Notes under the pieces: model-generated
Databases searched by the model: none
What the model saw: the letters and a program-made list of their open reading frames with translations, nothing else
What the model was told of the DNA's origin: nothing
Assembly (NCBI GenBank): GCA_023265135.1
Contig: JAHFUM010000002.1
Coordinates: 20,300 to 52,299 of the forward strand
DNA: 32,000 bases
Reading direction: 5' to 3'
Origin: Nitrosarchaeum sp.
GTDB taxonomy: Archaea > Thermoproteota > Nitrososphaeria > Nitrososphaerales > Nitrosopumilaceae
Program-made: the position numbers and the translations under genes
Shown here: positions 1 to 27,648 of the stretch, piece by piece
How positions within the stretch are numbered: position 1 is the stretch's first letter
Layout of the letters: the number at the start of each line of letters is the position of its first letter

Positions 1-2169
1 ACTTTATCTCATGCATTGACAGACAAAAAACATACCCTTGAATCAGCATGCTATGCCTTTAAGACAAATTTCAAAAAATACAAATCTCAAAGACATGGCA
101 AAATCACTAAAGATTACATTGATTATTGCATCAATGATGTAAAGTCAACTTACTCATTATATCTAAATGCAAAAAAAGAACTTGACACATACCAATTAGA
201 CATTCCGGTCACTAGGGTATATTCTCCAGCATCAATTGGAAAAGAATTTCTAAAAAAGATTGGAATAAAACCCTTCTTTGATAAAAATCCTAAATTTTCA
301 TTTGAAATGGTTGGAAAAATCATGGTTTGCTATTACGGAGGAAGGACTGAATGCAAGATACGAAAAACTCCAGTGCTGGTAGATGTTTTGGATTTTCTTT
401 CAATGTATCCAACCGTATGCACGTTGATGGATTTGTGGAGATTTGTCATTACTGATAAAATAATTCATCAAGATGTAACCCAAGAAATTCAAAATTTAAT
501 TAACAATTTTACCGTAGAGGACATTCAAGACAAATCACTATGGGAGAAACTTCCCTGCATAGTCCAGTTAGTTCCAGATGAGGATGTTTTACCAATCAGG
601 GTAAAATTTGGCCAAAAGCATGCGTGGAATATCGGAATTTGTAATGTTTCAGGCTCTGAGCCAACATGGTATGGCTTGGCTGATGTTTTGGCATCAAAGA
701 TGCACACAGGAAAATCTCCTAGAATAATTCAGGCAATCAAGTTTGTGCCACAGGGAGTACAAAAAAATCTAAAAGAAATAGAAATTCAAGGAGTCAAGAT
801 AAATCCATACTCTGATGATTTATTTAAAAAACTAATTGAGCACAGAGAAGAACTAAAAAATACTCGAGACTCTTTTGAGAAAGACAGTCAAGATTATCAA
901 TACTATGACAGACAACAAAAAATTATCAAAATCATAACAAATGCAATAAGTTACGGAATATTTGTAGAAATAAACACCTTTGATGAATCGGGTAAAATCC
1001 CAATCGATGTTTATGGGTTGACTCACTTTGAAGATCAAAAAACAAAATCAGAAAAAGTAGGTTACATGTTTAACCCAATCATTGCAGTATCCATTACCTC
1101 ATCAGCTAGATTATTGCTTGCAACAACTGAAGTCTTGTTGAATAAACACAATGCAACTCATGCATACTGTGACACTGATTCCATGGTGATTCCACCAAAA
1201 CACACAAAAGAGATTCAGGAATTTTTCCAACAGTTAAACCCATACAACTTTGATGCTGATATTTTCAAGCTAGAACATCATGAAAAGTGGTTTTATGGAA
1301 TATCATCAAAGAGATATGGTCTTTACACCATTAATAATAAAACAGATGAAATCAAAATTGATGATGAGAAATATTCTGCACATGGACTGGGACATTTACT
1401 TGATCCATTCAAGAATGATCCAGATGATGAATCAATATGGCATAAAGAACTATGGAAAGATATTATTGATTTACATTATGAGAAAATCTCACGAGAAGAA
1501 TTAATTGAAAAATATGGCAACAAGTATGCTATACAGCAATTATCCGTCTCCACTCCAAACATAATTAACAGATTCAAAAAAATTAATCTTGGAAAAGACT
1601 ATCAACATCAGGTAAAACCTTCAAACTTTGCCATTTTGGGATTCTCAAATCGTAAATCCGAGGCTACAGATGAGCCTATCAAGCCATTTGCTCCATATCA
1701 GAATCCTGCAAAACATGCAGTGTATTCCGAATTTGTGGACTATAATGATCCAAATCTGCAAAAGTATCAGGGAAAAGAGTATTGGAAATCAATTTGGGAT
1801 ACAATTGAGGAGTATCTTAGACATCCAGAGTCAAAATTTGATGGGGATGTTGGAGTTTTACAGAGAAAACATGTACGGATATCTTCTATTGTCCACATTG
1901 GTAAAGAGAGCAACGGATTAGACGAATCAGAGTTGTTTGGTTTGGATGATTCCAGTTATGAAATCTATCATGATGATTCAGAGATCGATGAGAAATTCAA
2001 GGCAATTGCTTCAAGAATATTGGAATTAAAACCAAAGGATGTAAAGAAATTTGGAATTTCAAAGCAAACATTATGTAATGTAAAAAAGAATATTGAAACC
2101 AATTGTTTTAATCGAATATCCGTAAGAATTAAAATTCAAATTATCGAATCATATGCTATAATTCAATAA
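1..2169 (+). CDS. Family B DNA polymerase, phi29-like/protein-primed type (pPolB), 5'-truncated by the window edge
   Basis: Frame 1 is open from nt 1, so the TTG at 16 is only an ORF-caller start. Motifs appear in canonical order: ExoIII-like YCINDVKSTYSLY, motif A DFLSMYPT (nt 391-411), motif B KIITNAISYG, motif C YCDTDS (nt 1165-1182, identical to the phi29 motif C string), and KxY as SKRYGLY. ExoI/II must lie upstream of the window. About 280 aa follow KxY. Confidence 0.85.
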   Translation, partial: TLSHALTDKKHTLESACYAFKTNFKKYKSQRHGKITKDYIDYCINDVKSTYSLYLNAKKELDTYQLDIPVTRVYSPASIGKEFLKKIGIKPFFDKNPKFSFEMVGKIMVCYYGGRTECKIRKTPVLVDVLDFLSMYPTVCTLMDLWRFVITDKIIHQDVTQEIQNLINNFTVEDIQDKSLWEKLPCIVQLVPDEDVLPIRVKFGQKHAWNIGICNVSGSEPTWYGLADVLASKMHTGKSPRIIQAIKFVPQGVQKNLKEIEIQGVKINPYSDDLFKKLIEHREELKNTRDSFEKDSQDYQYYDRQQKIIKIITNAISYGIFVEINTFDESGKIPIDVYGLTHFEDQKTKSEKVGYMFNPIIAVSITSSARLLLATTEVLLNKHNATHAYCDTDSMVIPPKHTKEIQEFFQQLNPYNFDADIFKLEHHEKWFYGISSKRYGLYTINNKTDEIKIDDEKYSAHGLGHLLDPFKNDPDDESIWHKELWKDIIDLHYEKISREELIEKYGNKYAIQQLSVSTPNIINRFKKINLGKDYQHQVKPSNFAILGFSNRKSEATDEPIKPFAPYQNPAKHAVYSEFVDYNDPNLQKYQGKEYWKSIWDTIEEYLRHPESKFDGDVGVLQRKHVRISSIVHIGKESNGLDESELFGLDDSSYEIYHDDSEIDEKFKAIASRILELKPKDVKKFGISKQTLCNVKKNIETNCFNRISVRIKIQIIESYAIIQ

Positions 2170-5007
2170 TCAATTATCATATTCTTTAGCATATATCGAT
2201 TTCAAATCATTATTCAATCGTTCATAAACCCAAGATAATACAGGGCAATCATCAAATAGTTCACTTGTGTATGAATGAAAAAGTGAATCTAGTACTGTGT
2301 TGGAATATGATGAAGTATGTTTTAATCCATCGTTAGTTCCAATTAAAAATCCCCAATCATCACTATCTTCATTTACTGTAAATGATTCCGCAGATGAACT
2401 TCTGACTTCAACTACATCTTTTTTCTCATTATTTGTACATATTGCATACCATAATCCACTAATTTCATTATGTCCTTCACTTTTTTCCAATTGAGCTGCA
2501 ATGTAAAAAGAATTACAATATTGTAGTAATTGATTTTTTATACTGGGAAAGTTTGTTTCTACTAGAATTCTGTATTCTTTGATAAAATTATCAAAAAACT
2601 GTTTAACGTACTCAATTAATCTATCTTCAGAATAGTCCTCAGATCTATTGATATGGTACCACCCTTGATGTTTAGGTTTATCACCAAGAGGTAAAAGAGT
2701 TGAACTAATCTCAGTTCCTACCAAAGATAATGTTTTTAGAATTTGATTTATTTCCTTAACAGAAATTGAATTACGATATCCATGTTTTAATCTAACGGAA
2801 GCTTCTTCAGGATTGGAAAAAAATTGCATCATACTTTTGCGTACCTCATTAATTTTTATCGGTAAAACCCAATCTAGAAATCTTTTCTTATATTCTGTCA
2901 ATCCAAACAGAAATGTACAATCTGGAAGTATGCTGAAAAATTTTTCTTTTGCTAATCCCACATTATTTGTTTCATCTAAATTGCGTTTTTTTATCAAATC
3001 TTTAGTTAAATGAAAAATTTTCTTATATGCAGCAGATTCAGTAGACGTGTTTGTAAAATTTTTTGATGATGAAGATAATTGTCTTACTCCATGTTTCCTC
3101 ATCAATTCAAAGTCTCTATCTTTAACCTCAAACCAATCTTTTTTATCATACCAAATTATTGGGTCTTCTCCATTTTCATAAAGTCGAAATCCTTCCCTTG
3201 CTACTACGTTGTATTCTTCATTGTAAAGGATTAACAAACCTAATGATCTTTTATCTGGTACTAATTTTTTAATTATGAAAGGAAATTCCTTTGTTGCTAT
3301 TTCGATAAACTTTTCAAGATATTCATTAGATCTTCTTCTATCATCGGTTTCAAATATTGGAATAAGTATTTCTTTATGTTTTTCATTTTGACATGTTTTT
3401 TTATAAAATTCTAAAATTTCTCTACCCATAGATGTACTGATATGTTTTGATGCAAATTCTTGAATTAATTGTGGACTTAAATTGTCTAATGTTTCCTGAT
3501 GATATGTTATTAGATAATTTCTTAATCCATCTGAACCAAATCTTATTTTTGTTCTTCCTTTTTCATCCTTTTGCGATATTATTATGCCATAATCTTTAAC
3601 AAATGAATGAGCATCAAAATCACTAATTTGAATTTCTGATTCAAAAATTTCATCTTTTTGAAGTTCAAGAAGTATTTTTGTTATGCCTAAAAGATGTGAT
3701 TTAATTCGTTCCTTGTCGATTATGGATTTAGTAAGAATGTTTTCCAAATAATTTTGGAAAATTTTTATTGAATCTAATGTTGATGGTACACCTTTATCTC
3801 TAAAGGTTTCAGCTACAATACGAAGAATAGAGGGATTTTTGCATTCTTGTAAAGTTTGTCCGTGTATTGCATTTTTTAATGAAAAATATTCTTCATATTT
3901 TCTAGTTGCTTCTTGTAATTCTTGTTGGGAAAATTCGTTTAGAGTTAATGAAATTGTATTTTTTTCCTTATCTGTTACAAACAAATTATCTGCTAAACTT
4001 GATGGTATGCCTCTATTTTCTAAAAATTTTTCTAGTTTAGATGTTTTACATGATAAAATAATTTTAAATCTTTTATCTTTAATTCGTCTAAAAAAATTAC
4101 TTAGTTCTACTTCTGCAGTGCTTAAAAACCATTCATCTACTGCATCAATAAATATGAATAATTTTTTATCATGTATTTCTAGAATTTCATTTAATTGTTT
4201 AAAATATTGCTCTTGAAATTTATGTGTAGAAAATTCCCAATCAAAATCATCCGATATACAATCCTCAATTTTTTGAGTTAATTCTGATGCATTATAGAAA
4301 AAAGTAGGATTATTTTTTCGTGATTCTTTTACTAAATCACAAATAGCATTAGTTTTTCCATATCCAGAATTCCCATCTATTATGAGTCCAACATTTTCAC
4401 TATCTACAAATTTGTAAAATGTTGATGTAATTTTACTTCTATTTACATAAACTTCTTGAATATATTTTCGTAAATCATCTTTATTTTGAGTTTCTAATTT
4501 TTTTAAAGTCTCATTATTTTGAAGATTACAAAATATTTCAAGATTTTCATAATTTAATGTAATTAATTTTGAAAGCGCTCTTGATCTAATTTCTGAATTT
4601 ATATCTATTTTATAATTATTCTTTACAAATTTTGATTCAGATAGTTTATCCGACGTTAATTCACTTTCATCAATTGAATCAAAAATTCGTGTAGTTTTTC
4701 CATTAGTAACAATTGCATATGGTGCTTGTGGTTTAACAAGTGAAGCGTAACAAACTGCTTGAGATATGTCTTCTGCTGAAATATCATGTTCCTCCTCTTT
4801 AATTTCAAGGATAAACAAATTCGTTCCATTAACATTAACTAAGATATCATAACGAGGTCGTTTTTCTATTACTTCCCATTTATTTTCATGTGTATATCTA
4901 CCAAGTTTGATTTTGAATGATCGTTCTAATGTTATGTTTTGATGATCTAACCCTAATGCTTCTAAAAAGGGAAGAATGTATTTTACTTTAATTTCTTCTT
5001 CAAGCAT
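2170..5007 (-). CDS. PD-(D/E)xK nuclease (HsdR-N/Mrr-like) fused to a NACHT/STAND-type P-loop NTPase and a large unassigned C-terminal domain; NLR/Avs-like candidate
   Basis: N-terminus: KYILPFLEALGL...RPRYD54ILV...LFILE68IK70...ISQAVCYA...YAIVTNGK matches the HsdR N-terminal restriction-endonuclease-like pattern (D...ExK). Walker A is DGNSGYGKT (aa 211-219, nt ~4351-4377) and Walker B is LFIFIDAVDE (aa 283-292). NACHT-like downstream signatures are KIILSCKT, LTLNEFSQQELQEATRKYEEYF and CKNPSILRIVAETF. Residues ~400-945 have no motif I recognise and no obvious TPR/WD40/LRR periodicity. Confidence 0.75.
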   Translation of the reverse strand: MLEEEIKVKYILPFLEALGLDHQNITLERSFKIKLGRYTHENKWEVIEKRPRYDILVNVNGTNLFILEIKEEEHDISAEDISQAVCYASLVKPQAPYAIVTNGKTTRIFDSIDESELTSDKLSESKFVKNNYKIDINSEIRSRALSKLITLNYENLEIFCNLQNNETLKKLETQNKDDLRKYIQEVYVNRSKITSTFYKFVDSENVGLIIDGNSGYGKTNAICDLVKESRKNNPTFFYNASELTQKIEDCISDDFDWEFSTHKFQEQYFKQLNEILEIHDKKLFIFIDAVDEWFLSTAEVELSNFFRRIKDKRFKIILSCKTSKLEKFLENRGIPSSLADNLFVTDKEKNTISLTLNEFSQQELQEATRKYEEYFSLKNAIHGQTLQECKNPSILRIVAETFRDKGVPSTLDSIKIFQNYLENILTKSIIDKERIKSHLLGITKILLELQKDEIFESEIQISDFDAHSFVKDYGIIISQKDEKGRTKIRFGSDGLRNYLITYHQETLDNLSPQLIQEFASKHISTSMGREILEFYKKTCQNEKHKEILIPIFETDDRRRSNEYLEKFIEIATKEFPFIIKKLVPDKRSLGLLILYNEEYNVVAREGFRLYENGEDPIIWYDKKDWFEVKDRDFELMRKHGVRQLSSSSKNFTNTSTESAAYKKIFHLTKDLIKKRNLDETNNVGLAKEKFFSILPDCTFLFGLTEYKKRFLDWVLPIKINEVRKSMMQFFSNPEEASVRLKHGYRNSISVKEINQILKTLSLVGTEISSTLLPLGDKPKHQGWYHINRSEDYSEDRLIEYVKQFFDNFIKEYRILVETNFPSIKNQLLQYCNSFYIAAQLEKSEGHNEISGLWYAICTNNEKKDVVEVRSSSAESFTVNEDSDDWGFLIGTNDGLKHTSSYSNTVLDSLFHSYTSELFDDCPVLSWVYERLNNDLKSIYAKEYDN

Positions 5008-5043
5008 TTAATTATACATAATCTAGGAGTGTACTAAATTTAT

Positions 5044-5400
5044 CTACATCATTTTGTTTGGATTGTAAAAGTCATCAATAACACGCAATGCTCTTTCTAA
5101 CACTTCTTGTATTGTATCTTCAGATATTCCAATAGACATACTGCCAATCCCTTTAATTTTAGATACGCTTGAGTCAGACCAAAGAAGTGTTGTAGAATAT
5201 CTGATTTTTTTACCATCCCAATCCTTATAGATCAAAAGTGGAATGTATTGATTTGAATAAGTTGTATACAAGTTCCAGTTTCCAACTAATTGACTCAGTC
5301 TATAGAATGTCGGGTGTTTATTCATTATATCTGTCAAATCTTCAACAGGTACTAAATTTTGAATTACTACTTTTTTATCGATGTCTAATATATCTGTCAT
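5044..5400 (-). CDS. Hypothetical 118-aa protein, first gene of the two-gene module with the nuclease-NTPase
   Basis: ATG-initiated ORF on the same strand, ending 36 nt upstream of the 945-aa gene start. It shares the same extreme AT-richness and has no recognisable motifs. Confidence 0.55.
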   Translation of the reverse strand: MTDILDIDKKVVIQNLVPVEDLTDIMNKHPTFYRLSQLVGNWNLYTTYSNQYIPLLIYKDWDGKKIRYSTTLLWSDSSVSKIKGIGSMSIGISEDTIQEVLERALRVIDDFYNPNKMM

Positions 5401-5514
5401 ATTACAGCATTCAATTCATTCTTGAAATATCTTGTGTTTGATTTAGTTTTGAGTGATATGAACATCTGTTTTATTTTGAATGTTTTTGTAATTTTTTACT
5501 CCAGAAAAAGGTCA

Positions 5515-9222: not shown

Positions 9223-10704
9223 GTGGAATCACAAAAGCATATAAGGCAAATCCAAAGTTTTGTTCCAAACATGCGACAAAAAAAGCAAAATTCTCAACCA
9301 AATCAAAAATTTCACGATGAGAAAATCAAAGTTGCAATCTATTCAATAGTTGCATCTGCCGCACTTACAATTCTAAAGTTATCTGTTGGATTTTCCATCA
9401 ATAGTCTTGGAGTCTTGTCTGAAGCATTCCATTCTGGATTGGATATTGTTGCAGCAGTCATGACATTTTATGCAATACGTATTGCAATGCGACCGCATGA
9501 TTTGAGGTACACATATGGTTATGCAAAACATGAAAGTCTTGCAAGTTTAGCTGAAATAATTTTGTTGTTTATTGTTGCAGGATGGGTGTTTTATGAAGGA
9601 ATACACAGAATATTTTACGAGTCGATCCAACCAGATGTGACAATTTTTTCAATAGGGATAATGGTTGTCTCAATTGTAGTGGACTTTGGAAGATCAAAGG
9701 CCCTATACCGCGTTGCAAAAAAATCTCAAAGTCAGGCATTAGAAGCAGACGCACTTCATTTCAAAGCAGACATGATTACTTCTGCTATAGTTATTGTGGG
9801 GCTCTTGGCTGTATTTCTATTACACATTCCTAATGCAGATGCATATGCTGCACTCATCGTTGCCGGCATGATTATCTATACATCACTTGGACTTGGTAGA
9901 AGAACATTGGATGTTCTTTTGGACAAGGCACCAAAAGGAGTTTACACAAAGATAATTGATTCAATTTCTGATCTTGAGGGGGTTGTACGAACACACGATA
10001 TTCGTGTAAGACAGGTAGGACCGCAAACCTTTGTAGATTTACATATTGAAGTTCCACGAACTTATACTCACTCCAGAGCTCATGATGTTGCTACATCTGT
10101 TGAAGAAAAAATAAGAAAAACTATTCCATCTTGTGATGTGTTAGTGCATGTAGATGCAATAAAGGGAAAAAATGAAACAATAATGGACAGAGTTAGACTT
10201 GTTGCAGGTGAAACTGAAGGCATAAGAAATGTCCATTCTACATATCTGTCTACAGTTGAAAAAAATGAATTAAAAAACAAAGACCTCCATCTCTACCTGG
10301 ATGTCCAGATGGACAATAATTTGGAGTTTAAAAAAGCTCATGATATTATAGATAAATTTGAAAACCAAGTCAAAAACAAAATACCTGAAATTAAAAACAT
10401 TACAACACACATTGAAACAGAAGTTGACGAAAATATCCCTGTTGGAACAGAAAAACCACCTGACAAATCTATTTTAGAAACGATACGAAATTTAGCTCTG
10501 TCGGTAGAGACAGTCAAAGAATGCAAAGATATTGGAATGATCTCTGTAAATGATGAACTACACATTACACTTACGATAAAAATTTTATCATCTGAAAAAA
10601 ATTTAACAGTAGAGGATGCACATAAAATTGCTACAGCTGTTCAAAACTTGATCATAAAAGACCTTGGAGCATCAAGAGTAATAGTACATACAGAGCCAAC
10701 ATGA
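9223..10704 (+). CDS. Cation diffusion facilitator (CDF) family metal efflux transporter with three tandem cytoplasmic-domain-like repeats
   Basis: Six-TM core with HSGLD (TM2) and HFKAD (TM5) metal-site motifs and YGYAKHESLASL. GTG start as called; an alternative ATG lies at 9271. The C-terminal tail is roughly twice the usual length. Confidence 0.9.
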   Translation: MESQKHIRQIQSFVPNMRQKKQNSQPNQKFHDEKIKVAIYSIVASAALTILKLSVGFSINSLGVLSEAFHSGLDIVAAVMTFYAIRIAMRPHDLRYTYGYAKHESLASLAEIILLFIVAGWVFYEGIHRIFYESIQPDVTIFSIGIMVVSIVVDFGRSKALYRVAKKSQSQALEADALHFKADMITSAIVIVGLLAVFLLHIPNADAYAALIVAGMIIYTSLGLGRRTLDVLLDKAPKGVYTKIIDSISDLEGVVRTHDIRVRQVGPQTFVDLHIEVPRTYTHSRAHDVATSVEEKIRKTIPSCDVLVHVDAIKGKNETIMDRVRLVAGETEGIRNVHSTYLSTVEKNELKNKDLHLYLDVQMDNNLEFKKAHDIIDKFENQVKNKIPEIKNITTHIETEVDENIPVGTEKPPDKSILETIRNLALSVETVKECKDIGMISVNDELHITLTIKILSSEKNLTVEDAHKIATAVQNLIIKDLGASRVIVHTEPT

Positions 10705-11060
10705 TACAAAAAAATTCGCAAGTTAACTAAATAATTTTAGCAAAAATCATAAAATTTAGATGTATTTTGATTCAAATCTATGTTAATTAATTTAACATCT
10801 TTTTCTGTAATCTTTTTGAATCTCTACTGGTAAATTATTTTATGTCGTCTATTTTCTAAAATTATTTTTTTAATTTATACACAATGCATATACAAGATTT
10901 ATCATTTTTGTATATGTGTTAATTTCATATCTGATTCCATTTAACACTTTTAATTTTAGAACAGGTAATGTGCAATTAAACCATGTTCAATAAATTTCAT
11001 TTTAGGAAATAACTTTCCAGTGATTAAGAGATAAAAAAAATTTGATTATTTAGAATAACA

Positions 11061-11303
11061 CTATTTGCCAGCTTGTTCTCTGACTTTTTTGGCAAGGTCT
11101 CCAAAAGGATCCTCATGCCATTTTTCTTTGTTTAATTGGGCACCTAAACCCGATGGTGATACAATTGGTCCTTGTACTGTCGCAGGTGCTGGAACCGCGT
11201 CCTTTGGGATATAGCTTTGCTGGTTTTGTGTTCCATAAGCTATTGCTCCTGCCATTGCTGCAACTCCAATTGCAATTCCTACGTATATCATATAATTTGC
11301 CAT
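11061..11303 (-). CDS. Small membrane-anchored hypothetical protein (80 aa)
   Basis: N-terminal TM segment MIYVGIAIGVAAMAGAIAYG and locally higher GC than the ORF-free flanks. The overlapping 11113..11310 ORF in another frame is less protein-like. Confidence 0.5.
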   Translation of the reverse strand: MANYMIYVGIAIGVAAMAGAIAYGTQNQQSYIPKDAVPAPATVQGPIVSPSGLGAQLNKEKWHEDPFGDLAKKVREQAGK

Positions 11304-11677
11304 TAGTCATTATTTGAAAAATATGTATTAATCAAGTAGGATTGCATTGCACTCATTTTTAAGAAATTACATGTTTTGATTGATTTTTTTAATATTATTA
11401 TATTGAAATATTTTGAAATCTAGCATAAGATATTTCAGAGATGGATAAAATGCTCTCTAGATAATACATGATTCATCTAACTATTCATTAGAAAGTATCC
11501 AAAATATAATTTGGTTAAACTATAATCAGTATAATTAACATCTGTTATTCAATTAATTCTTTTACTGATCGGATTTATCTTTAATTTACTTATAATTTTC
11601 GAGAATATGTTTTACAAAAGAATAAACATATCTATTATTTTAGATCTAGTTAAATTCAAGTTATTTTATTTAATATT

Positions 11678-12112
11678 GTGAGCAGTTCTGAATTATCAGT
11701 TCATAATACTGAGAATCATATTTCAATTTGTGATATAATGAAAGGAAACACATCAGCAATAATAAGAAAATTTGAATCTCAGATTCCAGCTGTAATACAA
11801 AATTATTCAAATTTGTACACCGCCTATCTTCACATGTATGATGATTTTTATGGTACTTGTTATATCCATGAAAAAGAGTTTTTTGACAAACTAAACATAG
11901 ATCAAACATTACTAAAACAACTCAAGGACAATTCTGAATTAATGAAGAATAGATATGTTGAAAATATAGAAACCACCGCAAAATTCTTTGATGAACAAGT
12001 TAAGATGCGAATATCTATATTGGAATCATTTGAAAACTTTACCCATATCATGATGGACTCTTATGCCAAAACTCTCTCACAATTTAATAAATTAATGAAC
12101 ATCTCAAAATAA
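11678..12112 (+). CDS. Hypothetical protein (144 aa), predicted helical
   Basis: ORF only (GTG start; alternative ATG at codon 21). No recognised motif. A TTCTAA-atg-TTAGAA hairpin lies just after the stop. Confidence 0.5.
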   Translation: MSSSELSVHNTENHISICDIMKGNTSAIIRKFESQIPAVIQNYSNLYTAYLHMYDDFYGTCYIHEKEFFDKLNIDQTLLKQLKDNSELMKNRYVENIETTAKFFDEQVKMRISILESFENFTHIMMDSYAKTLSQFNKLMNISK

Positions 12113-12306
12113 TTTTGTTCTAAATGTTAGAATCAGAGTTCTAAATCTGGTATTCTTACTCTGTTTTGTCTCTTTTTGCAATAATTTGAGATCTGGCTAC
12201 TAGAGTAATCAAATGATGATTCTAGTGAAAAACTCAAGCCACCAATCGATTTTCTACATATTATTAAAAAATTAAACTTAATAGACCGATTTTAGGTGTA
12301 AAATCT

Positions 12307-12468
12307 ATGGGACGTAGAAAAACACAGAAAATTATACGAACTGGTCCAAAAAACGCGACGACTGGAATGTGTCCCATATGCAAGACAATTGGCAAAGTCT
12401 TCCTTCTTGGTCCACCTGGTCAAGAAAGAGGCAAATGTGAGAAATGCCGTCAAGAATTTGAATTATAG
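12307..12468 (+). CDS. Elf1-like zinc-ribbon protein (53 aa)
   Basis: MGRRKTQKIIRTGPKNATTGMCPICKTIGKVFLLGPPGQERGKCEKCRQEFEL. A basic N-terminus followed by CPxC-x18-CxxC matches the layout of transcription elongation factor Elf1 homologues reported in TACK archaea. Below the ORF-track cut-off. Confidence 0.4.
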   Translation: MGRRKTQKIIRTGPKNATTGMCPICKTIGKVFLLGPPGQERGKCEKCRQEFEL

Positions 12469-12542
12469 TTCCAAAAAACTAACTAGCTGATCAAAATAAT
12501 TACCCATAACTTTTTAAGACAATTTTTTGAAGATTAATAATC

Positions 12543-12713
12543 ATGAGTTCAGAAGCTGAAACAATCTACGAAAGAGTAGCAAAACTCGAAGATGAGATTG
12601 CGTTAGTTAGAAGTGAAGTTGATATTCTTAAAAGAGCACTAAGAAACAGAATCGCACGACACGAGATATCAATGATCAAGAAAGGACAAGATATCGAATC
12701 TATTATTGATTAA
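12543..12713 (+). CDS. Small coiled-coil protein (56 aa)
   Basis: MSSEAETIYERVAKLEDEIALVRSEVDILKRALRNRIARHEISMIKKGQDIESIID has a heptad-like pattern. The 3' end overlaps the convergent gene by 11 nt. Confidence 0.35.
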   Translation: MSSEAETIYERVAKLEDEIALVRSEVDILKRALRNRIARHEISMIKKGQDIESIID

Positions 12714-13527
12714 TTTTTGTCTTTATACTTCTTATTAATTCTAAAATAAAATCTACGTCTTCTGCATTTGGATTGATTTCTAAATATTTATTCAAATATT
12801 CCAATGCTACATCTATATTTAATAATCTTTCTTCTAGTATTCCCTTATCTCGTATATCTTCTGGCGAATTTGGTTCTGTAGATAACACCATATTTGTACA
12901 TCTCAATGCTTTGTCGTAAACAAAAGATTGAACATAGGAATTTTTTAAATTTCTAGATAATCTGACAAGAATTTGTTCATGTCCTATATCATCAAGAAAC
13001 TCTGGTTTGAATTCTACTTCCCCTTCAAAATTCTCATCCAAAATTTCTTGAAGATCATCAACATCTAACAATCTTCCATCATTGAATGGATCTAAAATCA
13101 TCTCTTCGTTATATTTTACCAATATGTGACTTGGGAAACCAATTATTTTTAGATCCAATCCTATGAATTTTGCAATTTCAACATATAGTATTGAAATTGT
13201 TATTGGCAGTCCTGATTTTTTATCAATTACTTCATTTAAGAAATTATTTTTTGGATCATAGTAATCATCATTATCTCCACTGAAACCTAAATTATCAAAA
13301 AGATGCTCATTTAAAATTGAAATCAAATATGTAGGATTTTTCACATCGCTGATTGACTCTTTTAATGATTTTCCAATAGCGGTAATTTTCTGAATATATT
13401 TTTCAACATCTAGATCGGGATATTCTAAGATCTGAGCAAATTTAAGACACTTTTCAACTAGATTGAAGTTTGGGTTTTTCACAAATGAAAGCCATTCTGC
13501 AACTAGTGGGTCAAATTTTTCTGGCAA
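12703..13527 (-). CDS. Transglutaminase-like / TPR protein of the SirB1 (YchA) type
   Basis: KSGLPITISILYVEIAKFIGLDLKIIGFPSHILVKY plus a C-terminal helical-repeat region; the layout is typical of SirB1-family proteins. Confidence 0.65.
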   Translation of the reverse strand: MPEKFDPLVAEWLSFVKNPNFNLVEKCLKFAQILEYPDLDVEKYIQKITAIGKSLKESISDVKNPTYLISILNEHLFDNLGFSGDNDDYYDPKNNFLNEVIDKKSGLPITISILYVEIAKFIGLDLKIIGFPSHILVKYNEEMILDPFNDGRLLDVDDLQEILDENFEGEVEFKPEFLDDIGHEQILVRLSRNLKNSYVQSFVYDKALRCTNMVLSTEPNSPEDIRDKGILEERLLNIDVALEYLNKYLEINPNAEDVDFILELIRSIKTKINQ

Positions 13528-22520: not shown

Positions 22521-24188
22521 TTACTGTTTTGCTAATTCTGTCCAACTAACTTTTTCATTTTGTACCCAAAGGAATTTTTTCTGCAGTGCTGCAGTGTATA
22601 GTTTCTCCCATTCTACACCAACTTCATCAGTCCATGCTTTGAAAACACGAGGATCTATGTAATTTCGTAATGATGTTCCAAGGTTGTAATCTTTAGTTTT
22701 CTCAGACAAATCAATTTGTAACTGTAATTTCTCTGTTCTTTCTTTGTGTTTTTCCTTTTGTTTTTTGATCTGTTCGTTTAACACCTTTATTTTTTTTGCT
22801 TTGATATTTTTTTGTGCATCTGTTTTTTCTTCTAATCCATCTGCTTTTTTTAATAAATCTAAAGTTTTTTTCCACGGCTGTTCTTTATTGATATTTTTTA
22901 GAACATCTCTTTTCTTTTCAAGTGTCTCTTCGAATGTTTTTGGGATGGTTCTTTTATGATTGCACATTATTGCTGCCTCCAAATTTGCCAATTTTGCATG
23001 ATACAATTTCTCATTAGGTGTTTTTCCTTTCATACTGTCATGTTCTTTTAGATAATTTTTTACTACCGTAGTTGCAAGATATGTTCTGAATACTTTGGCA
23101 GTCAATCCGTTTACTATGCTGGAGTAATACGCATTTACGTGCCTTGAAGTAATGTCTTCAAAAATCTCGTCTTTTGGTTTTTTGTTTTGGATTAGTCTCT
23201 TGAGATTTTCTTGGAATTGCTTGTCGTTGCCTTCTGCCTTGACTGTTTCTTGCCATCTTACACTATCTTTTCCCAAGAAATCAAATTCTATCGCATCTTC
23301 TGTGATTTTGATGTGTTCTTTTCTCAATGTGGTTGCACCAACAGTATCTGCCTCATCAGGATCTTTTTCATCCCCCACTCTCATTGCAGTTCTATAAATC
23401 AAATAACATGCAGTGGAAATCCTGCTAATTTTTGGATCCTTGTTTTTCATATCTTTTACTATTCTATCTTTAATTTTCTCAATTTCTTTTGATAGCTTGA
23501 CTGCTTTTTCGTATTTTGCTTTGTCTCTGTCTTGTTTTATTCCTGCAGTATCTGCAAGCCAAACGTACTTTCTTTTCCCAGTAAGATAATCTGTCCAGCC
23601 CGCAAGCCACATGGAATCACTTTCATGGACAATTTTACCCCAGTTCCCCTCCGGGACTTTGGCCTCTTTTCCCAGATTTAATGTAACATCTTTTTCCGTG
23701 ACACGAGGTTTCCATCTTCCTCTAAGCGGATGATCTCCTCTTCCGATAAAAATTCCTGGAGGCTCTGCCATGTAATTTGCAACATCGACTTCTTTTCCAT
23801 CCATGATGGCTTTGCCGTATTTCTGAACTAGTTTTTCTCGTAATTCCTTTCTCTTAACTGCCAATGCTTTTCTTTCTTCCTTTGTCATCATCTCTCTGAG
23901 ATCTTTTTCTTTGTCAACTATTTTGTAAGCATACGAAAAATCAATATCCTGATATGATATATTTTTAAATTTTGATGGCAATGTTTTGGCAAAATCTTCT
24001 GTAAAATTTTTCTGAAAAACTTTGTCTTGGGAATATGAGGTATCTTTCTTTTTTGCCCATTGGTATGTCATCTCCTCTTGATTCAGATCAAGGTCTACGT
24101 TATCTCCTTTGATCTTTATCTTGATTCCATGCGCTTCGTAATCAGGCGGAAACAAGATTCCATTATGTTGCAGTGTTTTCCATTTCAT
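22521..24188 (-). CDS. Eukaryote-type DNA topoisomerase IB
   Basis: The N-terminus MKWKTLQHNGILFPPDYEAHG and the C-terminal catalytic-tyrosine motif LGTSLRNYIDPRVFKAW (compare human LGTSKLNYLDPRITVAW). Confidence 0.95.
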   Translation of the reverse strand: MKWKTLQHNGILFPPDYEAHGIKIKIKGDNVDLDLNQEEMTYQWAKKKDTSYSQDKVFQKNFTEDFAKTLPSKFKNISYQDIDFSYAYKIVDKEKDLREMMTKEERKALAVKRKELREKLVQKYGKAIMDGKEVDVANYMAEPPGIFIGRGDHPLRGRWKPRVTEKDVTLNLGKEAKVPEGNWGKIVHESDSMWLAGWTDYLTGKRKYVWLADTAGIKQDRDKAKYEKAVKLSKEIEKIKDRIVKDMKNKDPKISRISTACYLIYRTAMRVGDEKDPDEADTVGATTLRKEHIKITEDAIEFDFLGKDSVRWQETVKAEGNDKQFQENLKRLIQNKKPKDEIFEDITSRHVNAYYSSIVNGLTAKVFRTYLATTVVKNYLKEHDSMKGKTPNEKLYHAKLANLEAAIMCNHKRTIPKTFEETLEKKRDVLKNINKEQPWKKTLDLLKKADGLEEKTDAQKNIKAKKIKVLNEQIKKQKEKHKERTEKLQLQIDLSEKTKDYNLGTSLRNYIDPRVFKAWTDEVGVEWEKLYTAALQKKFLWVQNEKVSWTELAKQ

Positions 24189-25134: not shown

Positions 25135-27648
25135 TTACACTAGAGGTCTGTCACTCTCTGTGGGCTTGACCAACTTTGTTTCTTCACCGCTGTTGATTCT
25201 TTGAAGAATTTCTAATGCAGAGTATTTGTGTAAGAATTCATTATTGTTTCCGCATCTATATGAAAATGTACAACGTGGGCAACCTGCCTCATTTTGACAT
25301 GGGCATTCTTTTACTATGGACATGCTTCGCTCAAGCGCACTCTCAAATCTATCAAATAGCGCCTTACTTGCTCCATTTCCTCCTATAGCTCCATCATAAA
25401 TGAATATCAGCCCAGATGTTCCAAGCGATATTCCACCTAAATCTTGAGATACTCCTCCAGTAATCATGTTGCTGCCTTCAATTACAACGTGTTCTGTGGC
25501 ATGGTACCCGCTTGCCTCTGTGTAGTCTTCATCTTCTGATTTTTTGATCTCTTTGATTGGTCTTGGGGCATGAAATACAATTCCCTTTGTGATAAAGTCA
25601 TACTCTAATGGAGTGTCAAGTAAAACTTTTTGTCCTTGTGTAATCTCTTGTCCTAATTCGATGTTGACATAGCCATAGACTTTTTTTTGTATATGTAGTT
25701 TACAAAATGCAACTTCTACTCCGTATGCTTTTCTCTTCTCAAATACTGTTTCAATTGTCGGCCATTCTTCCGTTAATGCCTTTGTGTAATACGGATAGTC
25801 TCTTGAAATTCTCTCAAGTTTTGCAAAATTTCTTTGAGGATACCCACATTCTTTTACTCTATACCTTGTCCCTGCAAGAAAGTATATTGCATCTTTATGA
25901 AGTTCTTCTAAAGCAATTGGAAGAACTCTGTCTCCGACCTTCTTTTCATTTAAGAAAATATCTACTGATTTTCCAATTCCTCTTATGCTATACTCATTTA
26001 GCAAAGAAGTAATTTTATCGCGATTTGGTATTATTCTGTTATTGTCAAGTAACAGATTTCCTTGTTTGAGGTGCTCTTCTATCACTTCATCATGCTCATT
26101 TAACTCATGTCTGGAAATTGGTTTATCACAAGCCATTGCCATTACTTGAAATTCTTCTACAAACGGATTCTTTGGATCAATGTATGTTTTTTCAACATCT
26201 TCAAAATAATCTTCAGGATGATTCTTGTAGTATTGCGAAATCGGATCATTTCCAAGTGCCAAAAATGCATATCCTCGTTGTCCTTTTCTTGCTGCCCTGC
26301 CAATTCTTTGAATCAATCTATTCACTGGAATGGTAGATGAAATAACACAATCCACATTTCCCACATCTATCCCAAGCTCAAGCGTAGGAGTGCATGAAAT
26401 TGCCTGCAATCTATCATCTTTGAATTCCTGCTCCACCGCTTTTCTATAATTCGCCATCAGGCCGGCTCTGTGAACTTTGATGTTGACTTTTTGTTTCTTT
26501 GCCTGTATTGCTAAAAGCTCCGAATTTAGATGTGAGTTGTTGAACACCATTGTTTTGTGATTTTTTTCAGTCATTCTCTTTGTCAAATCAACCATTAATG
26601 CGCGTTGAGTTCTCAGCGAGGGAAATACCATGACAAAGTCTGTCTGTCCTTTTTTGCCAGAACCCCGAATGATCTTCATTTTTACTCCAAATAATTGCTC
26701 ACAAAAGTTTTTGGCATCGTCTAAAGTTGCTGATGCTGCAACAAATTGTATTTTGTTGTTACACATTCGCTTCAATCTTTTTATTATATAATGAACATTA
26801 GAACCAAAAATTCCTGAATACACATGTGCCTCATCTACTACCAAAACTTTCATTGTTCCAAGCAACGATGAAAATTTTGTTTGGTGCCAGAGATGATAAT
26901 GTAAAACATCAAAATTTGTAATCAGTATGTGTGGAGGATTCTCTAAAATTTCTCTTCTGTCCACCTGATTTGTATCTCCATCAAATACCTGTACATCTAT
27001 TCCAATTTTTTCTGCAAACTTTAGGATTTTTGGATGTTGGTCTCGTGACAAAGCTTTAGTTGGATAAACAAATACCGCAAATACTCCTTTGGCATCACTT
27101 GATTCTTTTTTTATCTTTTGAATTACTGGAATTAAAAATGCCTCTGTTTTTCCTGATGCTGTAGGTGCTTCAATTACTACGTTTTCTCCAAATGACACAT
27201 CTTCAATTGACTCTTCTTGAAATTTGTAAAACTGTTTAATTCCAATTTCTTTCAAGTGATCGCTTATTGATTCATCCAATCCTAGATCTTCTACACTACC
27301 TCCCATTTCAGGGTCAGGATTTTTCAGAACTTTGTATTGAGAAATATAGTCTTTTTTTGAGAAAAGAATTAATTCTGTGATTTTATCCGGATTATTTCTT
27401 CCAATCATCATTTTAATTTCTTTTTCGTCTCTGATTATTCCTTCATCTTTTAGACCTTGAGAAATTCCTTTTTCTGAAACTAATCCCTCATCAAATCTTG
27501 AAAGAAACTCCAAAAACACCTCGTCAATATTTTTTGAAAATTCTAGTAGATCCTCAATACCGCAGTTATTGCATAATATGTGCGTCTTTTTGTTGAATGT
27601 TTTTTGTATCTCTAATTTAGATTTACATTTTGGACATGAAAATTTCAA
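25135..27648 (-). CDS. Superfamily-2 DEAH helicase of the COG1205/YprA(MrfA)-like family, with an N-terminal zinc ribbon and a C-terminal DUF1998-type Cys cluster
   Basis: Zinc ribbon CPKC...CNNC. Helicase motifs I APTASGKT, Ia YPTKALSRDQ, II VVDEAH, III SATL and VI QRIGRAARKG. C-terminal CPCQNEAGCPRCTFSYRCGNNNEFL. Only a TTG start (27646-27648, directly after an in-frame stop) retains the zinc ribbon. Confidence 0.9.
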   Translation of the reverse strand: MKFSCPKCKSKLEIQKTFNKKTHILCNNCGIEDLLEFSKNIDEVFLEFLSRFDEGLVSEKGISQGLKDEGIIRDEKEIKMMIGRNNPDKITELILFSKKDYISQYKVLKNPDPEMGGSVEDLGLDESISDHLKEIGIKQFYKFQEESIEDVSFGENVVIEAPTASGKTEAFLIPVIQKIKKESSDAKGVFAVFVYPTKALSRDQHPKILKFAEKIGIDVQVFDGDTNQVDRREILENPPHILITNFDVLHYHLWHQTKFSSLLGTMKVLVVDEAHVYSGIFGSNVHYIIKRLKRMCNNKIQFVAASATLDDAKNFCEQLFGVKMKIIRGSGKKGQTDFVMVFPSLRTQRALMVDLTKRMTEKNHKTMVFNNSHLNSELLAIQAKKQKVNIKVHRAGLMANYRKAVEQEFKDDRLQAISCTPTLELGIDVGNVDCVISSTIPVNRLIQRIGRAARKGQRGYAFLALGNDPISQYYKNHPEDYFEDVEKTYIDPKNPFVEEFQVMAMACDKPISRHELNEHDEVIEEHLKQGNLLLDNNRIIPNRDKITSLLNEYSIRGIGKSVDIFLNEKKVGDRVLPIALEELHKDAIYFLAGTRYRVKECGYPQRNFAKLERISRDYPYYTKALTEEWPTIETVFEKRKAYGVEVAFCKLHIQKKVYGYVNIELGQEITQGQKVLLDTPLEYDFITKGIVFHAPRPIKEIKKSEDEDYTEASGYHATEHVVIEGSNMITGGVSQDLGGISLGTSGLIFIYDGAIGGNGASKALFDRFESALERSMSIVKECPCQNEAGCPRCTFSYRCGNNNEFLHKYSALEILQRINSGEETKLVKPTESDRPLV

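What the first reader, a model, noticed from the sequence alone, without database searches (positions are those of the whole stretch)
2170..5400. Candidate archaeal NLR/Avs-like immune module: 118-aa orphan plus PD-(D/E)xK nuclease - NACHT/STAND NTPase - unassigned ~550-aa C-terminal domain
Seen in sequence: the 945-aa protein has an N-terminal restriction-endonuclease-like core (D54 ... E68-x-K70, then QAVCYA and YAIVTNGK, the HsdR-N/Mrr style). It is followed by Walker A GNSGYGKT, Walker B LFIFIDAVDE and NACHT-like post-Walker signatures (ILSCKT; NEFSQQELQEATRKYEEYF; NPSILRIVAETF). After that come ~550 aa with no motif or repeat periodicity I can recognise. Established knowledge: effector-nuclease + STAND NTPase + C-terminal sensor is the architecture of bacterial Avs/AVAST and bNACHT antiphage proteins. 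Inference: this is an NLR-like sensor/effector whose C-terminal domain is a new ligand-recognition module, and the co-oriented 118-aa gene 36 nt upstream may be a partner or modulator. Context supports an accessory role: the block is visibly more AT-rich than its neighbours and sits against a pPolB gene of a mobile element. Defence systems in ammonia-oxidising archaea are poorly characterised.
Basis: partly seen in the sequence, partly recalled or inferred. Interest (0 to 1): 0.85.

Follow-up and report, generated by a model that had tools for sequence, protein, structure and literature searches.

The report
Nuclease-NACHT defence-like gene cassette in archaeon
A thaumarchaeon carries a mobile two-gene cassette whose large protein is built like a bacterial NLR-type antiviral sensor (DNA-cutting head, NACHT-like switch, tail of an unrecognised fold); the design is a known kind, but the tail and the small partner gene are uncharacterised.

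Summary
The 945-aa ORF (2170-5007, minus strand) and the 118-aa ORF 36 nt upstream are real genes under purifying selection. They lie in the lowest-GC stretch of the window and abut a casposon pPolB gene.

The large protein has three parts. First is an HsdR-N-type PD-(D/E)xK nuclease (Pfam above threshold; D54, E68, K70, Q83 and Y87 invariant). Second is a STAND NTPase with the NACHT Walker-B signature DAVDE; its best structural matches are NLRC4, NOD2, NLRP3 and Avs3/4. Third is a roughly 360-aa alpha/beta C-terminal domain. It is modelled confidently but has no significant match in Pfam, PDB sequences, PDB folds or viral folds, and it occurs only in this family.

The family is rare and patchy. 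It is mostly found in Bacteroidota, where it stands alone and sometimes sits beside DRT, Gabija or restriction-modification genes.

In thaumarchaea the two genes move as a discrete 3.3-kb cassette, seen in four unrelated contexts. The only distant relative of the small protein sits behind a ThsB-like TIR gene.

Best reading: an NLR-like abortive-infection nuclease acquired by horizontal transfer. It is not a member of Avs1-5 or of the bNACHT25 clade. Defence function, the trigger and the role of the partner remain inference.

The parts
5401..5452 (-). Conserved ~50-nt upstream region of the cassette; the putative promoter. It contains a conserved A/T-rich 'TATTTCAAGAAT' block about 25-35 nt before the ATG.
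   Evidence: DNA homology between cassette copies in unrelated contexts starts here (L001 9556 corresponds to window 5452). Sequences are compared. Promoter function is inferred.
5044..5400 (-). 118-aa gene of unknown fold and function. It lies upstream of and in the same orientation as the large gene, and is linked to it only in the thaumarchaeal clade.
   Evidence: ORF. Eight orthologues, all 118 aa and 75-100% identical. dN/dS 0.08-0.15. No significant Pfam, NCBIfam, PADLOC, PHROG or PDB match. One distant homologue, P0101, lies next to a TIR gene.
5008..5043 (-). 36-nt spacer between the two genes; probably co-transcribed.
   Evidence: The called gap is 36 nt in L002 and L085 and 18 nt in L003.
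2170..5007 (-). 945-aa nuclease-NACHT-like STAND protein (whole gene, stop codon included).
4654..5007 (-). aa 1-118: HsdR-N/RecB-type PD-(D/E)xK nuclease domain (D54, E68-x-K70, Q83xxxY87); the predicted effector.
   Evidence: HSDR_N_2 35.5 bits (cutoff 25) and HSDR_N 26.7 bits (cutoff 25.1). 27 of 27 family members match. D54, E68, K70, Q83, Y87, N102 and G103 are invariant. The model shows an alpha-beta-beta-beta-beta-alpha-beta order. This is the most conserved domain, with 51% median identity to distant members.
4441..4653 (-). aa 119-189: helical linker.
   Evidence: Secondary structure of the AlphaFold model.
3883..4440 (-). aa 190-375: P-loop nucleotide-binding domain. Walker A is G212-T219. 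Walker B is D288-A-V-D-E292, which fits the NACHT D[GAS]hDE signature. 'SCKT' 319-322 sits at the sensor-1 position.
   Evidence: The signature definition is quoted from Kibby et al..
3496..3882 (-). aa 376-504: helical domain 1 plus a winged-helix domain of the STAND module.
   Evidence: Model elements H383-449, H464-472, E476-480, E486-490 and H493-504. Foldseek alignments of about 390-510 columns to NLRC4, NOD2 and NLRP3.
3253..3495 (-). aa 505-585: helical domain 2. The boundary is approximate.
2173..3252 (-). aa 586-945: family-specific alpha/beta C-terminal domain of unrecognised fold; the predicted sensor.
   Evidence: The model of aa 505-945 has pLDDT 88 and pTM 0.86. No Foldseek hit at E<=1e-3 in PDB or BFVD. 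No PDB sequence hit with the profile. No Pfam hit in any of 27 members. phmmer against 1.84 billion representatives gave 51 hits, all in the same position or fragments. No internal repeats.
16..2169 (+). Context: the 3' part of the pPolB gene of a family-1 casposon. It is convergent with the large gene with 0 nt between the stop codons.
   Evidence: The pPolB is 39% identical, the Cas1 46% and two upstream genes 32-34% identical to the casposon in L002. Family-1 casposon gene order is described in PMC6563490.

Best explanation
The 945-aa protein is a single-chain NLR-like (STAND/NACHT-type) defence protein.

Proposed mechanism:
1. In the resting state the C-terminal alpha/beta domain and the winged-helix and helical domains hold the NTPase closed.
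2. Binding of a trigger to the C-terminal domain opens the NTPase. The trigger could be a viral or mobile-element protein, or a host factor altered by infection.
3. Nucleotide-dependent oligomerisation brings the N-terminal HsdR-type PD-(D/E)xK nuclease domains together.
4. The assembled nucleases cut DNA indiscriminately, stopping the invader or killing the infected cell.

The gene travels by horizontal transfer. In thaumarchaea it moves as a 3.3-kb cassette with a 118-aa gene. That protein most likely modulates the large protein, either as an inhibitor or guard partner or as an adaptor.

Shown: the domain architecture, intact catalytic and NTP-binding residues, purifying selection, cassette mobility, patchy distribution, and defence genes next to some bacterial members.

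Inferred: the defence function, the sensor role of the C-terminus, activation by oligomerisation, DNA as substrate, and any interaction with the 118-aa protein.
For: Architecture:
- HSDR_N_2 is above the Pfam cutoff in 27 of 27 members.
- D54, E68, K70, Q83, Y87, G212, G215, G217, K218, D288, D291 and E292 are invariant.
- The NACHT-defining D[GAS]hDE signature is present as DAVDE.
- The full-length model has pLDDT 80.6. Its best Foldseek hits are NLRC4 (2e-8), NLRP14, NOD2, NLRP3, Avs4, Avs3, MalT and SAMD9.
- The conservation gradient runs from 51% identity in the effector to 19% in the C-terminus.
- Invariant C-terminal residues are mostly hydrophobic, aromatic or proline, with no catalytic-looking set.

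Accessory and mobile character:
- DNA homology among L001, L002 and L003 is confined to the two genes plus about 50 nt upstream.
- The cassette has four different neighbourhoods. Two include casposons that are only 33-46% identical to each other, against 78% for the cassette protein.
- It is the lowest-GC stretch of the window.
- 73 loci were found among 185,579 species genomes, mostly Bacteroidota and none in Nitrososphaeria representatives.
- No partner gene is conserved in bacteria.

Defence context:
- Among 140 immediate neighbours in 35 bacterial loci there are 3 DRT reverse transcriptases, 2 type IIG restriction-modification genes, 2 GajB plus 2 OLD-type ATPases, PLD, Mrr and helicase genes, and 3 integrases.
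- The only distant homologue of the 118-aa protein lies in an integrase-bounded island behind a ThsB-like TIR gene and AbiV-like genes.

Precedent:
- REase-NACHT proteins such as bNACHT25 protect against phage, and their toxicity depends on the nuclease.
- Nuclease-STAND Avs proteins are activated by oligomerisation when they bind a phage protein.
Against: - No experiment exists on any member of the family.
- Pfam NACHT is below its gathering score.
- No PADLOC defence model matches beyond a weak nuclease-domain hit.
- The family profile finds no PDB sequence.
- Comparison with bNACHT25 gives only a weak NTPase match.
- The family was not found in phage records or IMG/VR contigs and barely in plasmids.
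- The sensor-1 position carries an invariant Lys where I recall an Arg in canonical NACHT. That recollection is not a tool result.
- Domain-averaged dN/dS in the C-terminus is as low as elsewhere, so there is no sign of the diversifying selection often seen in immune sensors.
- Many bacterial neighbours are ordinary housekeeping genes. The neighbour survey has no matched background control.
- The 118-aa protein could not be modelled or co-folded.
Confidence: 0.6

Rival explanations
1. A selfish addiction (toxin-antitoxin-like) cassette. The nuclease-NTPase is a toxin kept in check by the 118-aa protein. The pair stabilises the mobile elements or genomic islands it rides on rather than sensing viruses.
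For: The small gene lies upstream, co-oriented and tightly spaced. It is more conserved than the large gene (75-92% against 71-78% identity). The pair is always inherited together in the thaumarchaeal clade and sits next to casposons and other island genes. A MazE/AbrB-like gene lies in the adjacent casposon.
Against: All bacterial family members lack the small gene yet keep intact catalytic residues, so the large protein does not need it as an antidote. The small protein has no similarity to known antitoxins or DNA-binding folds. Its distant homologue sits downstream of a TIR gene, not upstream of a toxin. TA-like behaviour and abortive-infection defence are not mutually exclusive.
Confidence: 0.12
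2. A non-immune STAND regulator or DNA-maintenance enzyme, for example a repair or recombination nuclease switched by an NTPase. The mobile context would be incidental.
For: STAND clades switch repeatedly between defence and non-defence roles (PMC13581612). Several bacterial loci show only housekeeping neighbours. Purifying selection is uniform. No defence HMM matches.
Against: The distribution is very patchy and rare, and the family is absent from species representatives of the window's own lineage. The cassette moves between unrelated contexts. There are defence and integrase neighbours in a sizeable minority of loci. An intact nuclease fused to an NLR-type switch is the architecture used by validated defence proteins.
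Confidence: 0.1
3. A function of the mobile element itself: a nuclease plus AAA+-like ATPase used by casposons or related elements for integration, target choice or replication, by analogy with TnsA/TnsC.
For: The gene abuts the casposon pPolB with 0 nt between stop codons. A second cassette copy lies 3.8 kb from another casposon. Per Kibby et al., STAND ATPases share the winged-helix extension with Cdc6/Orc and transposase ATPases.
Against: Two of the four cassette contexts show no Cas1 or pPolB. The casposon lies in opposite orientation and at a different distance in the two loci that have one. No casposon or transposase gene is a conserved neighbour among the 66 loci clustered, 62 of them from the genome scan. 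Described family-1 casposons do not list such a gene as core. No terminal inverted repeats enclosing the cassette were found.
Confidence: 0.04

Closest known systems
Bacterial REase-NACHT proteins (Kibby et al. 2023): bNACHT25 and bNACHT32 (clade 6, REase + NACHT/nSTAND4 + NCH1) and the clade 2 REase/Mrr_cat + NACHT proteins
   Same: An N-terminal restriction-endonuclease-fold effector is followed by a NACHT-type STAND NTPase with the D[GAS]hDE Walker B, then a non-repeat C-terminal domain. They are single-gene systems. For bNACHT25, toxicity depends on the nuclease.
   Different: The nuclease is of the HsdR-N/RecB type (HSDR_N_2), not Mrr-like. The C-terminus is a ~360-aa alpha/beta domain rather than the helical NCH1, which scores 132 bits in bNACHT25 and does not match here at E<=1. 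Profile comparison aligns only the NTPase (probability 3%, E 0.015, 18% identity). Pfam NACHT scores 20 bits here against 37 bits in bNACHT25. In thaumarchaea there is an extra 118-aa partner gene.
Avs / AVAST antiviral STAND proteins (Avs1-4, Gao et al. 2022; Avs7-21, Lee et al. 2026, PMC13581612)
   Same: They have a tripartite effector - STAND NTPase - C-terminal sensor layout, often with PD-(D/E)xK (Cap4 or Mrr-like) nucleases. Avs3 and Avs4 are among the structural matches. Their activation by trigger-induced oligomerisation is the mechanistic template used here.
   Different: No PADLOC Avs model matches. The sensor is not TPR-like, has no repeats, and is far shorter than typical Avs sensors. 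The NTPase carries the NACHT signature. The supplementary tables of that survey were not available, so I could not check whether this family is one of its 589 clades.
Animal NLRs (NLRC4, NOD2, NLRP3)
   Same: They are the best structural matches to the NBD-HD1-WHD-HD2 module (E 2e-8 to 3e-7). They share the Walker B signature.
   Different: There are no LRRs, and the effector is a nuclease instead of CARD or PYD. Sequence identity is 9-14%. The sensor-1 position carries Lys instead of Arg; the canonical Arg is from my own recollection.
N-terminal nuclease domain of type I restriction enzyme HsdR
   Same: Pfam HSDR_N_2 and HSDR_N are above threshold. The D...ExK triad and the QxxxY motif are present. 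That QxxxY is a RecB/HsdR nuclease motif is from my own knowledge.
   Different: There is no SF2 helicase motor and no HsdM or HsdS partners. The domain is fused to a STAND switch instead.

Membership tests
PD-(D/E)xK nuclease, HsdR-N type (PF13588/PF04313) | Profile match above the curated threshold | tested here: met
   HSDR_N_2 scores 35.5 bits (cutoff 25) and HSDR_N 26.7 bits (cutoff 25.1). 27 of 27 and 25 of 27 family members match.
PD-(D/E)xK nuclease, HsdR-N type (PF13588/PF04313) | Catalytic D...(D/E)xK triad, plus the QxxxY motif, conserved | tested here: met
   D54, E68, K70, Q83 and Y87 are invariant in 27 sequences spanning archaea and bacteria.
PD-(D/E)xK nuclease, HsdR-N type (PF13588/PF04313) | Alpha-beta-beta-beta-alpha-beta restriction-endonuclease fold | tested here: inconclusive
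   The order of secondary-structure elements in the model fits, with D54 on strand 52-59 and E68/K70 on strand 62-70. This domain has pLDDT of only about 60-80, and no fold search of the domain alone was possible.
STAND NTPase | P-loop NTPase followed by a helical domain and a winged-helix domain | tested here: met
   The model shows NBD 190-375, helices 383-449 and a winged helix 464-504. There are 115 Foldseek PDB hits at E<=1e-3, led by NLRs, Avs3/4, MalT, SAMD9 and ORC/Cdc6.
NACHT clade of STAND | Walker B signature D[GAS]hDE, as defined in Kibby et al. | tested here: met
   D288-A-V-D-E292. D288, D291 and E292 are invariant and A289 is at least 90% conserved.
NACHT clade of STAND | Pfam NACHT (PF05729) at or above the gathering score | tested here: not met
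   20.0 bits against 26.7. Only 6 of 27 members match at E<=0.01. The related NPHP3_N matches in 24 of 27, and nSTAND5, nSTAND3 and nSTAND1 also appear.
NACHT clade of STAND | Closest structures are NACHT proteins | tested here: met
   NLRC4, NLRP14, NOD2 and NLRP3 rank at the top, although ORC/Cdc6 and Avs score similarly.
Avs1-5 / AVAST and PADLOC NLR-like (bNACHT01/09) systems | Match to the system's HMM | tested here: not met
   PADLOC returns only a weak MTase_II hit on the nuclease domain.
Avs families | Large TPR-like (or other repeat) C-terminal sensor | tested here: not met
   The C-terminus is alpha/beta, has no self-similarity, and matches no TPR Pfam model.
bNACHT25/32 clade | Mrr-like REase + NACHT + NCH1 helical C-terminal domain, with detectable homology | tested here: not met
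   hhalign of the family profile against bNACHT25 gives probability 3% and covers the NTPase only. NCH1 and Mrr_cat are found in bNACHT25 but not in the window protein.
Anti-virus / anti-MGE defence system (functional class) | Protection against infection that depends on the effector and on NTP binding | not testable with these tools
   Requires genetics in a host and a virus panel.
Anti-virus / anti-MGE defence system (functional class) | Accessory distribution and association with defence islands or mobile elements | tested here: inconclusive
   The distribution is patchy and the cassette is mobile. Casposon, integrase, DRT, Gabija and restriction-modification neighbours occur in a minority of loci. 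There is no matched background control, and many neighbours are housekeeping genes.

The most novel reading that the evidence does not exclude
The ~360-aa C-terminal domain is a new sensor fold that recognises a component of thaumarchaeal viruses or casposons. The 118-aa protein is a portable adaptor or guard factor that plugs into unrelated effectors: the nuclease-NACHT protein here and a ThsB-like TIR protein in L084. It would couple both to the same trigger. Casposons would then be either the vehicles or the targets of this immunity.
Probability: 0.12. Interest if true: 0.75.

Novelty: new variant of a known kind. Interest (0 to 1): 0.5.

Why it matters
Nuclease-NACHT/STAND sensors are an established class of bacterial immunity, but almost nothing is known about innate immunity in ammonia-oxidising archaea.

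- This locus offers a concrete candidate with intact catalytic residues, apparently gained by horizontal transfer and moving as a small cassette beside casposons.
- Its C-terminal domain is modelled confidently, yet it matches nothing in Pfam, PDB or the viral structure set. It could define a new trigger-recognition module.
- Bacterial relatives in tractable Flavobacterium strains make the family experimentally accessible.
- The small partner protein, shared with a TIR-containing island, is a testable lead for an accessory factor that works with different effectors.

Tried and rejected
- **Casposon terminal repeats.** I looked for terminal inverted repeats or target duplications that would place the cassette inside or outside the casposon. 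Only short chance-level matches in AT-rich DNA turned up. The other casposon end is off the window and off contig L001.
- **Possible pPolB truncation.** The blastn overlap of 39 nt past the stop codon suggested the cassette had truncated pPolB. I rejected this because the pPolB aligns end to end with its L002 homologue.
- **Published catalogues.** No family accession was found in the Kibby et al. supplement. The supplements of the 2026 STAND survey are not held.
- **Kibby's NCAB1 alpha/beta domain.** This is a ~135-aa cyanobacterial domain. I had no sequence to compare, and it is too short to account for the 360-aa domain here.
- **Neighbours of the distant 118-aa homologue.** I tested whether the 283-aa or TIR proteins resemble domains of the 945-aa protein. 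They do not.
- **More 118-aa relatives and viral copies.** The search in JGI metagenomes found nothing, and the family was not found in IMG/VR.
- **A conserved partner gene in bacteria.** None was found. The only recurrent 'neighbours' were spurious antisense ORFs inside the gene itself.

Full report
**1. What is there**

The window carries a 945-aa ORF at 2170-5007 on the minus strand and a 118-aa ORF at 5044-5400 on the same strand. They are separated by 36 nt. The two genes occupy the lowest-GC 3.2-kb stretch of the 32-kb window, at GC 0.275 against 0.330 elsewhere.

The left neighbour (16-2169, plus strand) is the 3' part of a 910-aa protein-primed family-B polymerase gene. Its stop codon directly abuts the stop codon of the 945-aa gene.

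The host is a thaumarchaeon. The window encodes a eukaryote-type topoisomerase IB at 22521-24188. That this enzyme is a hallmark of the phylum among archaea is established knowledge, not a result obtained here.

Both ORFs are real genes:
- dN/dS between cassette copies is 0.04-0.29 for each domain of the large gene.
- dN/dS is 0.08-0.15 for the small gene.

**2. Anatomy of the 945-aa protein**

*N-terminus (aa 1-118).*
- Pfam HSDR_N_2 scores 35.5 bits against a gathering score of 25, and HSDR_N scores 26.7 against 25.1.
- All 27 aligned homologues match HSDR_N_2.
- D54, E68, K70, Q83 and Y87 are invariant. They form the D...ExK triad and a QxxxY motif. From my own knowledge, QxxxY is the RecB/HsdR nuclease motif.
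- The AlphaFold model places these residues on the expected strands and helix. This domain is the least confident part of the model, and it could not be fold-searched on its own.

*Middle (aa 190-585).*
- Walker A is G212-T219 and Walker B is D288-A-V-D-E292. All key residues are invariant.
- DAVDE fits the D[GAS]hDE signature that Kibby et al. use to separate NACHT from other STAND NTPases.
- The full-length model has mean pLDDT 80.6. It shows a nucleotide-binding domain, a helical domain, a winged helix (464-504) and a second helical domain.
- Foldseek against the PDB gives 115 hits at E<=1e-3. They are led by NLRC4 (2e-8), NLRP14, NOD2, NLRP3, Avs4, Avs3, MalT and SAMD9, together with ORC/Cdc6.
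- By sequence the module is divergent. Pfam NACHT scores only 20 bits against a cutoff of 26.7. Family members variously hit NPHP3_N (24 of 27), AAA_22, nSTAND5, NACHT (6 of 27) and nSTAND3.
- A profile of the family finds nothing significant among PDB sequences.
- The sensor-1 position reads S-C-K-T with invariant C320 and K321. I recall T-S-R in canonical NACHT; this is recollection, not a test.

*C-terminus (aa 586-945).*
- A separate model of aa 505-945 is confident, with pLDDT 88.1 and pTM 0.86. It shows an alpha/beta domain.
- It has no Foldseek hit at E<=1e-3 in the PDB, where the best TM-scores are about 0.1, or in the viral structure set.
- It has no PDB sequence hit with the profile and no Pfam hit in any of 27 members.
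- It has no internal repeats.
- phmmer of aa 505-945 against 1.84 billion representative proteins found only 51 proteins at E<=1e-3. Essentially all are of similar length with the match at the same C-terminal position, or are fragments.
- The domain is therefore specific to this family. Its invariant residues are mostly hydrophobic, aromatic or proline, with only E688 and K824 polar. This argues for a binding or structural role rather than an enzymatic one; that is inference.

**3. The family and its distribution**

- Close relatives at 71-78% identity come from four other metagenomic contigs. Two more are at 44-46% identity.
- About 25 full-length bacterial proteins of 980-1000 aa align end to end at about 26% identity.
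- Some are named 'NTPase (NACHT family)' or 'type I restriction enzyme HsdR N-terminal domain-containing protein', for example in Solitalea canadensis (WP_014679572.1) and Pedobacter lusitanus.
- A scan of 185,579 species-representative genomes found 73 loci. Most are Bacteroidota, with scattered hits in Nitrospirota, Bacillota, Myxococcota, Methanoperedens and a Heimdallarchaeote. None is in a Nitrososphaeria representative.
- The family was not found in phage records or IMG/VR, and only as two partial matches in plasmids.
- The nuclease domain is strikingly conserved, with 51% median identity between the archaeal protein and distant members. The C-terminus is least conserved at 19%.

**4. 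Genomic context**

DNA similarity between the window's contig (L001) and two other cassette-bearing contigs is confined to the two genes plus about 50 nt upstream (L001 9556-12877 against L002, and 9570-12810 against L003). Everything beyond is unrelated. The 3.3-kb pair behaves as a discrete cassette. It sits in four different neighbourhoods:
- **Window.** PadR and FMN-reductase genes lie on one side and a casposon on the other.
- **L002.** Unknown genes, a PIN-like gene and another casposon 3.8 kb away in the opposite orientation.
- **L003.** A thermosome gene on one side, and ParB-N and HNH genes on the other.
- **L085.** HATPase_c_3 and DUF2130 genes.

The two casposons share Cas1 (46% identity), pPolB (39%) and two upstream genes (32-34%). 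They are therefore much more diverged from each other than the cassette copies are (78% at protein level). Their gene order matches the family-1 casposons of Thaumarchaeota, which are known to carry element-specific nucleases such as OLD, HEPN, NERD and Cas4 (PMC6563490).

I could not determine whether the cassette lies inside the casposon. No terminal repeats were found, and the far end is off the contig. The zero-nucleotide junction with pPolB leaves no room for a terminus between the two genes. That mildly favours a cargo arrangement or a degraded element end; this is inference.

In bacteria the gene stands alone. Clustering of flanking ORFs across 66 loci found no conserved partner. Among 140 immediate neighbours in 35 loci there were:
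- three DRT-type reverse transcriptases
- two type IIG restriction-modification enzymes
- two GajB plus two OLD-type ATPases
- PLD, Mrr and DEAD-helicase genes
- three integrases

Other loci show only housekeeping neighbours. This suggests an association with defence islands but does not demonstrate one, because I had no background control.

**5. The 118-aa protein**

- It has eight orthologues, all 118 aa and 75-100% identical. In the copies whose contigs I fetched (window, L002, L003/L004, L083 and L085) it lies directly upstream of a close relative of the large gene. For the other orthologues the pairing is inferred from matching contig lengths or was not examined.
- It is more conserved than the large gene.
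- It has no significant match in Pfam, NCBIfam, PADLOC, PHROGs or the PDB.
- It is absent from all bacterial loci and from the locus of the 46%-identical archaeal relative.
- A profile search found one distant homologue, P0101 (108 aa, 42% identity).
- P0101 is the last gene of a co-directional cluster in an integrase-bounded island. It follows a ThsB-like TIR protein (PADLOC PDC-S66 at 1e-51, ThsB at 1e-30) and a 283-aa unknown protein, and two AbiV/HEPN-like genes lie nearby.
- Those neighbours are unrelated to the domains of the 945-aa protein.
- The small protein therefore appears with two different defence-type effectors. With only two contexts, that is a lead and not a conclusion.

**6. 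Mechanism**

My best explanation, at confidence about 0.6, is an NLR-like abortive-infection or anti-invader nuclease. The C-terminal domain senses a trigger, the NACHT-like NTPase switches and oligomerises, and the clustered HsdR-type nuclease domains cut DNA. This copies the logic shown experimentally for bNACHT25 and for nuclease-bearing Avs proteins.

Rivals:
- a toxin-antitoxin-like addiction cassette with the small protein as inhibitor (0.12)
- a non-immune STAND enzyme (0.10)
- a casposon-related function (0.04)

**7. Comparison with known systems**

It works like REase-NACHT and Avs proteins, but it is not a member of the tested families:
- No PADLOC Avs or NLR model matches.
- The sensor is not repeat-based.
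- bNACHT25 was retrieved from an E. coli genome. It aligns with the family profile only over the NTPase, at 18% identity, probability 3% and E 0.015.
- bNACHT25 carries Mrr-like and NCH1 domains that are absent here.
- Membership of the NACHT clade is supported by the Walker B signature and by structure, but not by the Pfam threshold.
- I could not check whether the clade or its sensor is already listed in the 2026 survey of 589 STAND clades and 684 sensor clusters, because its tables are not held.

**8. Verdict**

The finding is less novel than claimed. It is an uncharacterised, rare and mostly bacterial branch of a well-known class, partly annotated already.

Three features are new:
- the C-terminal domain has no recognisable relatives
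- the gene occurs in thaumarchaea as a mobile two-gene cassette beside casposons
- the small partner protein also occurs next to a TIR system

I rate it a new variant of a known kind, with interest 0.5.

Noticed in passing
window 16-2169 (+), continuing off the window; L001 12839-17970: A family-1 casposon: a 910-aa pPolB preceded by three small genes (112, 166 and 58 aa), with a divergent 236-aa gene and Cas1. The pPolB stop codon touches the stop codon of the 945-aa gene. The casposon ends were not found.
   Followed up: partly
L084 6199-8362: The only distant homologue of the 118-aa protein (P0101, 42% identity) is the last gene of a cluster made of a ThsB-like TIR gene and a 283-aa unknown gene. 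The cluster lies in an integrase-bounded island that also has AbiV/HEPN-like genes. It may be an uncharacterised TIR-based system that shares an accessory protein.
   Followed up: partly
window 22521-24188 (-): A eukaryote-type DNA topoisomerase IB (Topoisom_I_N, Topoisom_I and Topo_C_assoc). It identifies the host as a thaumarchaeon.
   Followed up: no
window 25135-27648 (-): An 837-aa DEAD/DEAH helicase with a C-terminal MrfA Zn-binding (DUF1998-type) domain. This architecture is seen both in DNA repair and in some defence systems.
   Followed up: no
window 9223-10704 (+): A cation-efflux (CDF) transporter whose product shows three separate matches to the ZT_dimer dimerisation domain. This is an unusual tandem arrangement.
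   Followed up: no
L086 4088-5698 (E. coli pSTEC411_1, CP061244.1): An unannotated, apparently 5'-truncated ORF with an HSDR_N_2 nuclease remnant and a P-loop NTPase, lying between IS66 and IS3 elements. It is a remote relative of the same architecture.
   Followed up: partly
L002 14996-16285 and L078 8243-9538: A ~430-aa protein of unknown function (46% identical between the two loci) lies about 2 kb downstream of the nuclease-NACHT gene in two otherwise different archaeal loci.
   Followed up: no
L085 3692-6337: Next to one cassette copy lie a GHKL-type ATPase gene (HATPase_c_3, with a weak type II REase-like N-terminus), an 81-aa gene and a DUF2130 gene, all co-oriented. They may form another island-borne system.
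   Followed up: no
window protein aa 25-261 (window 4225-4935): PHROG family phrog_26510 (unknown function, 786-position profile) matches the nuclease plus the start of the NTPase at E 2e-9. Some phage or prophage proteins therefore share this N-terminal half, although no phage record or IMG/VR contig holds a full relative.
   Followed up: no
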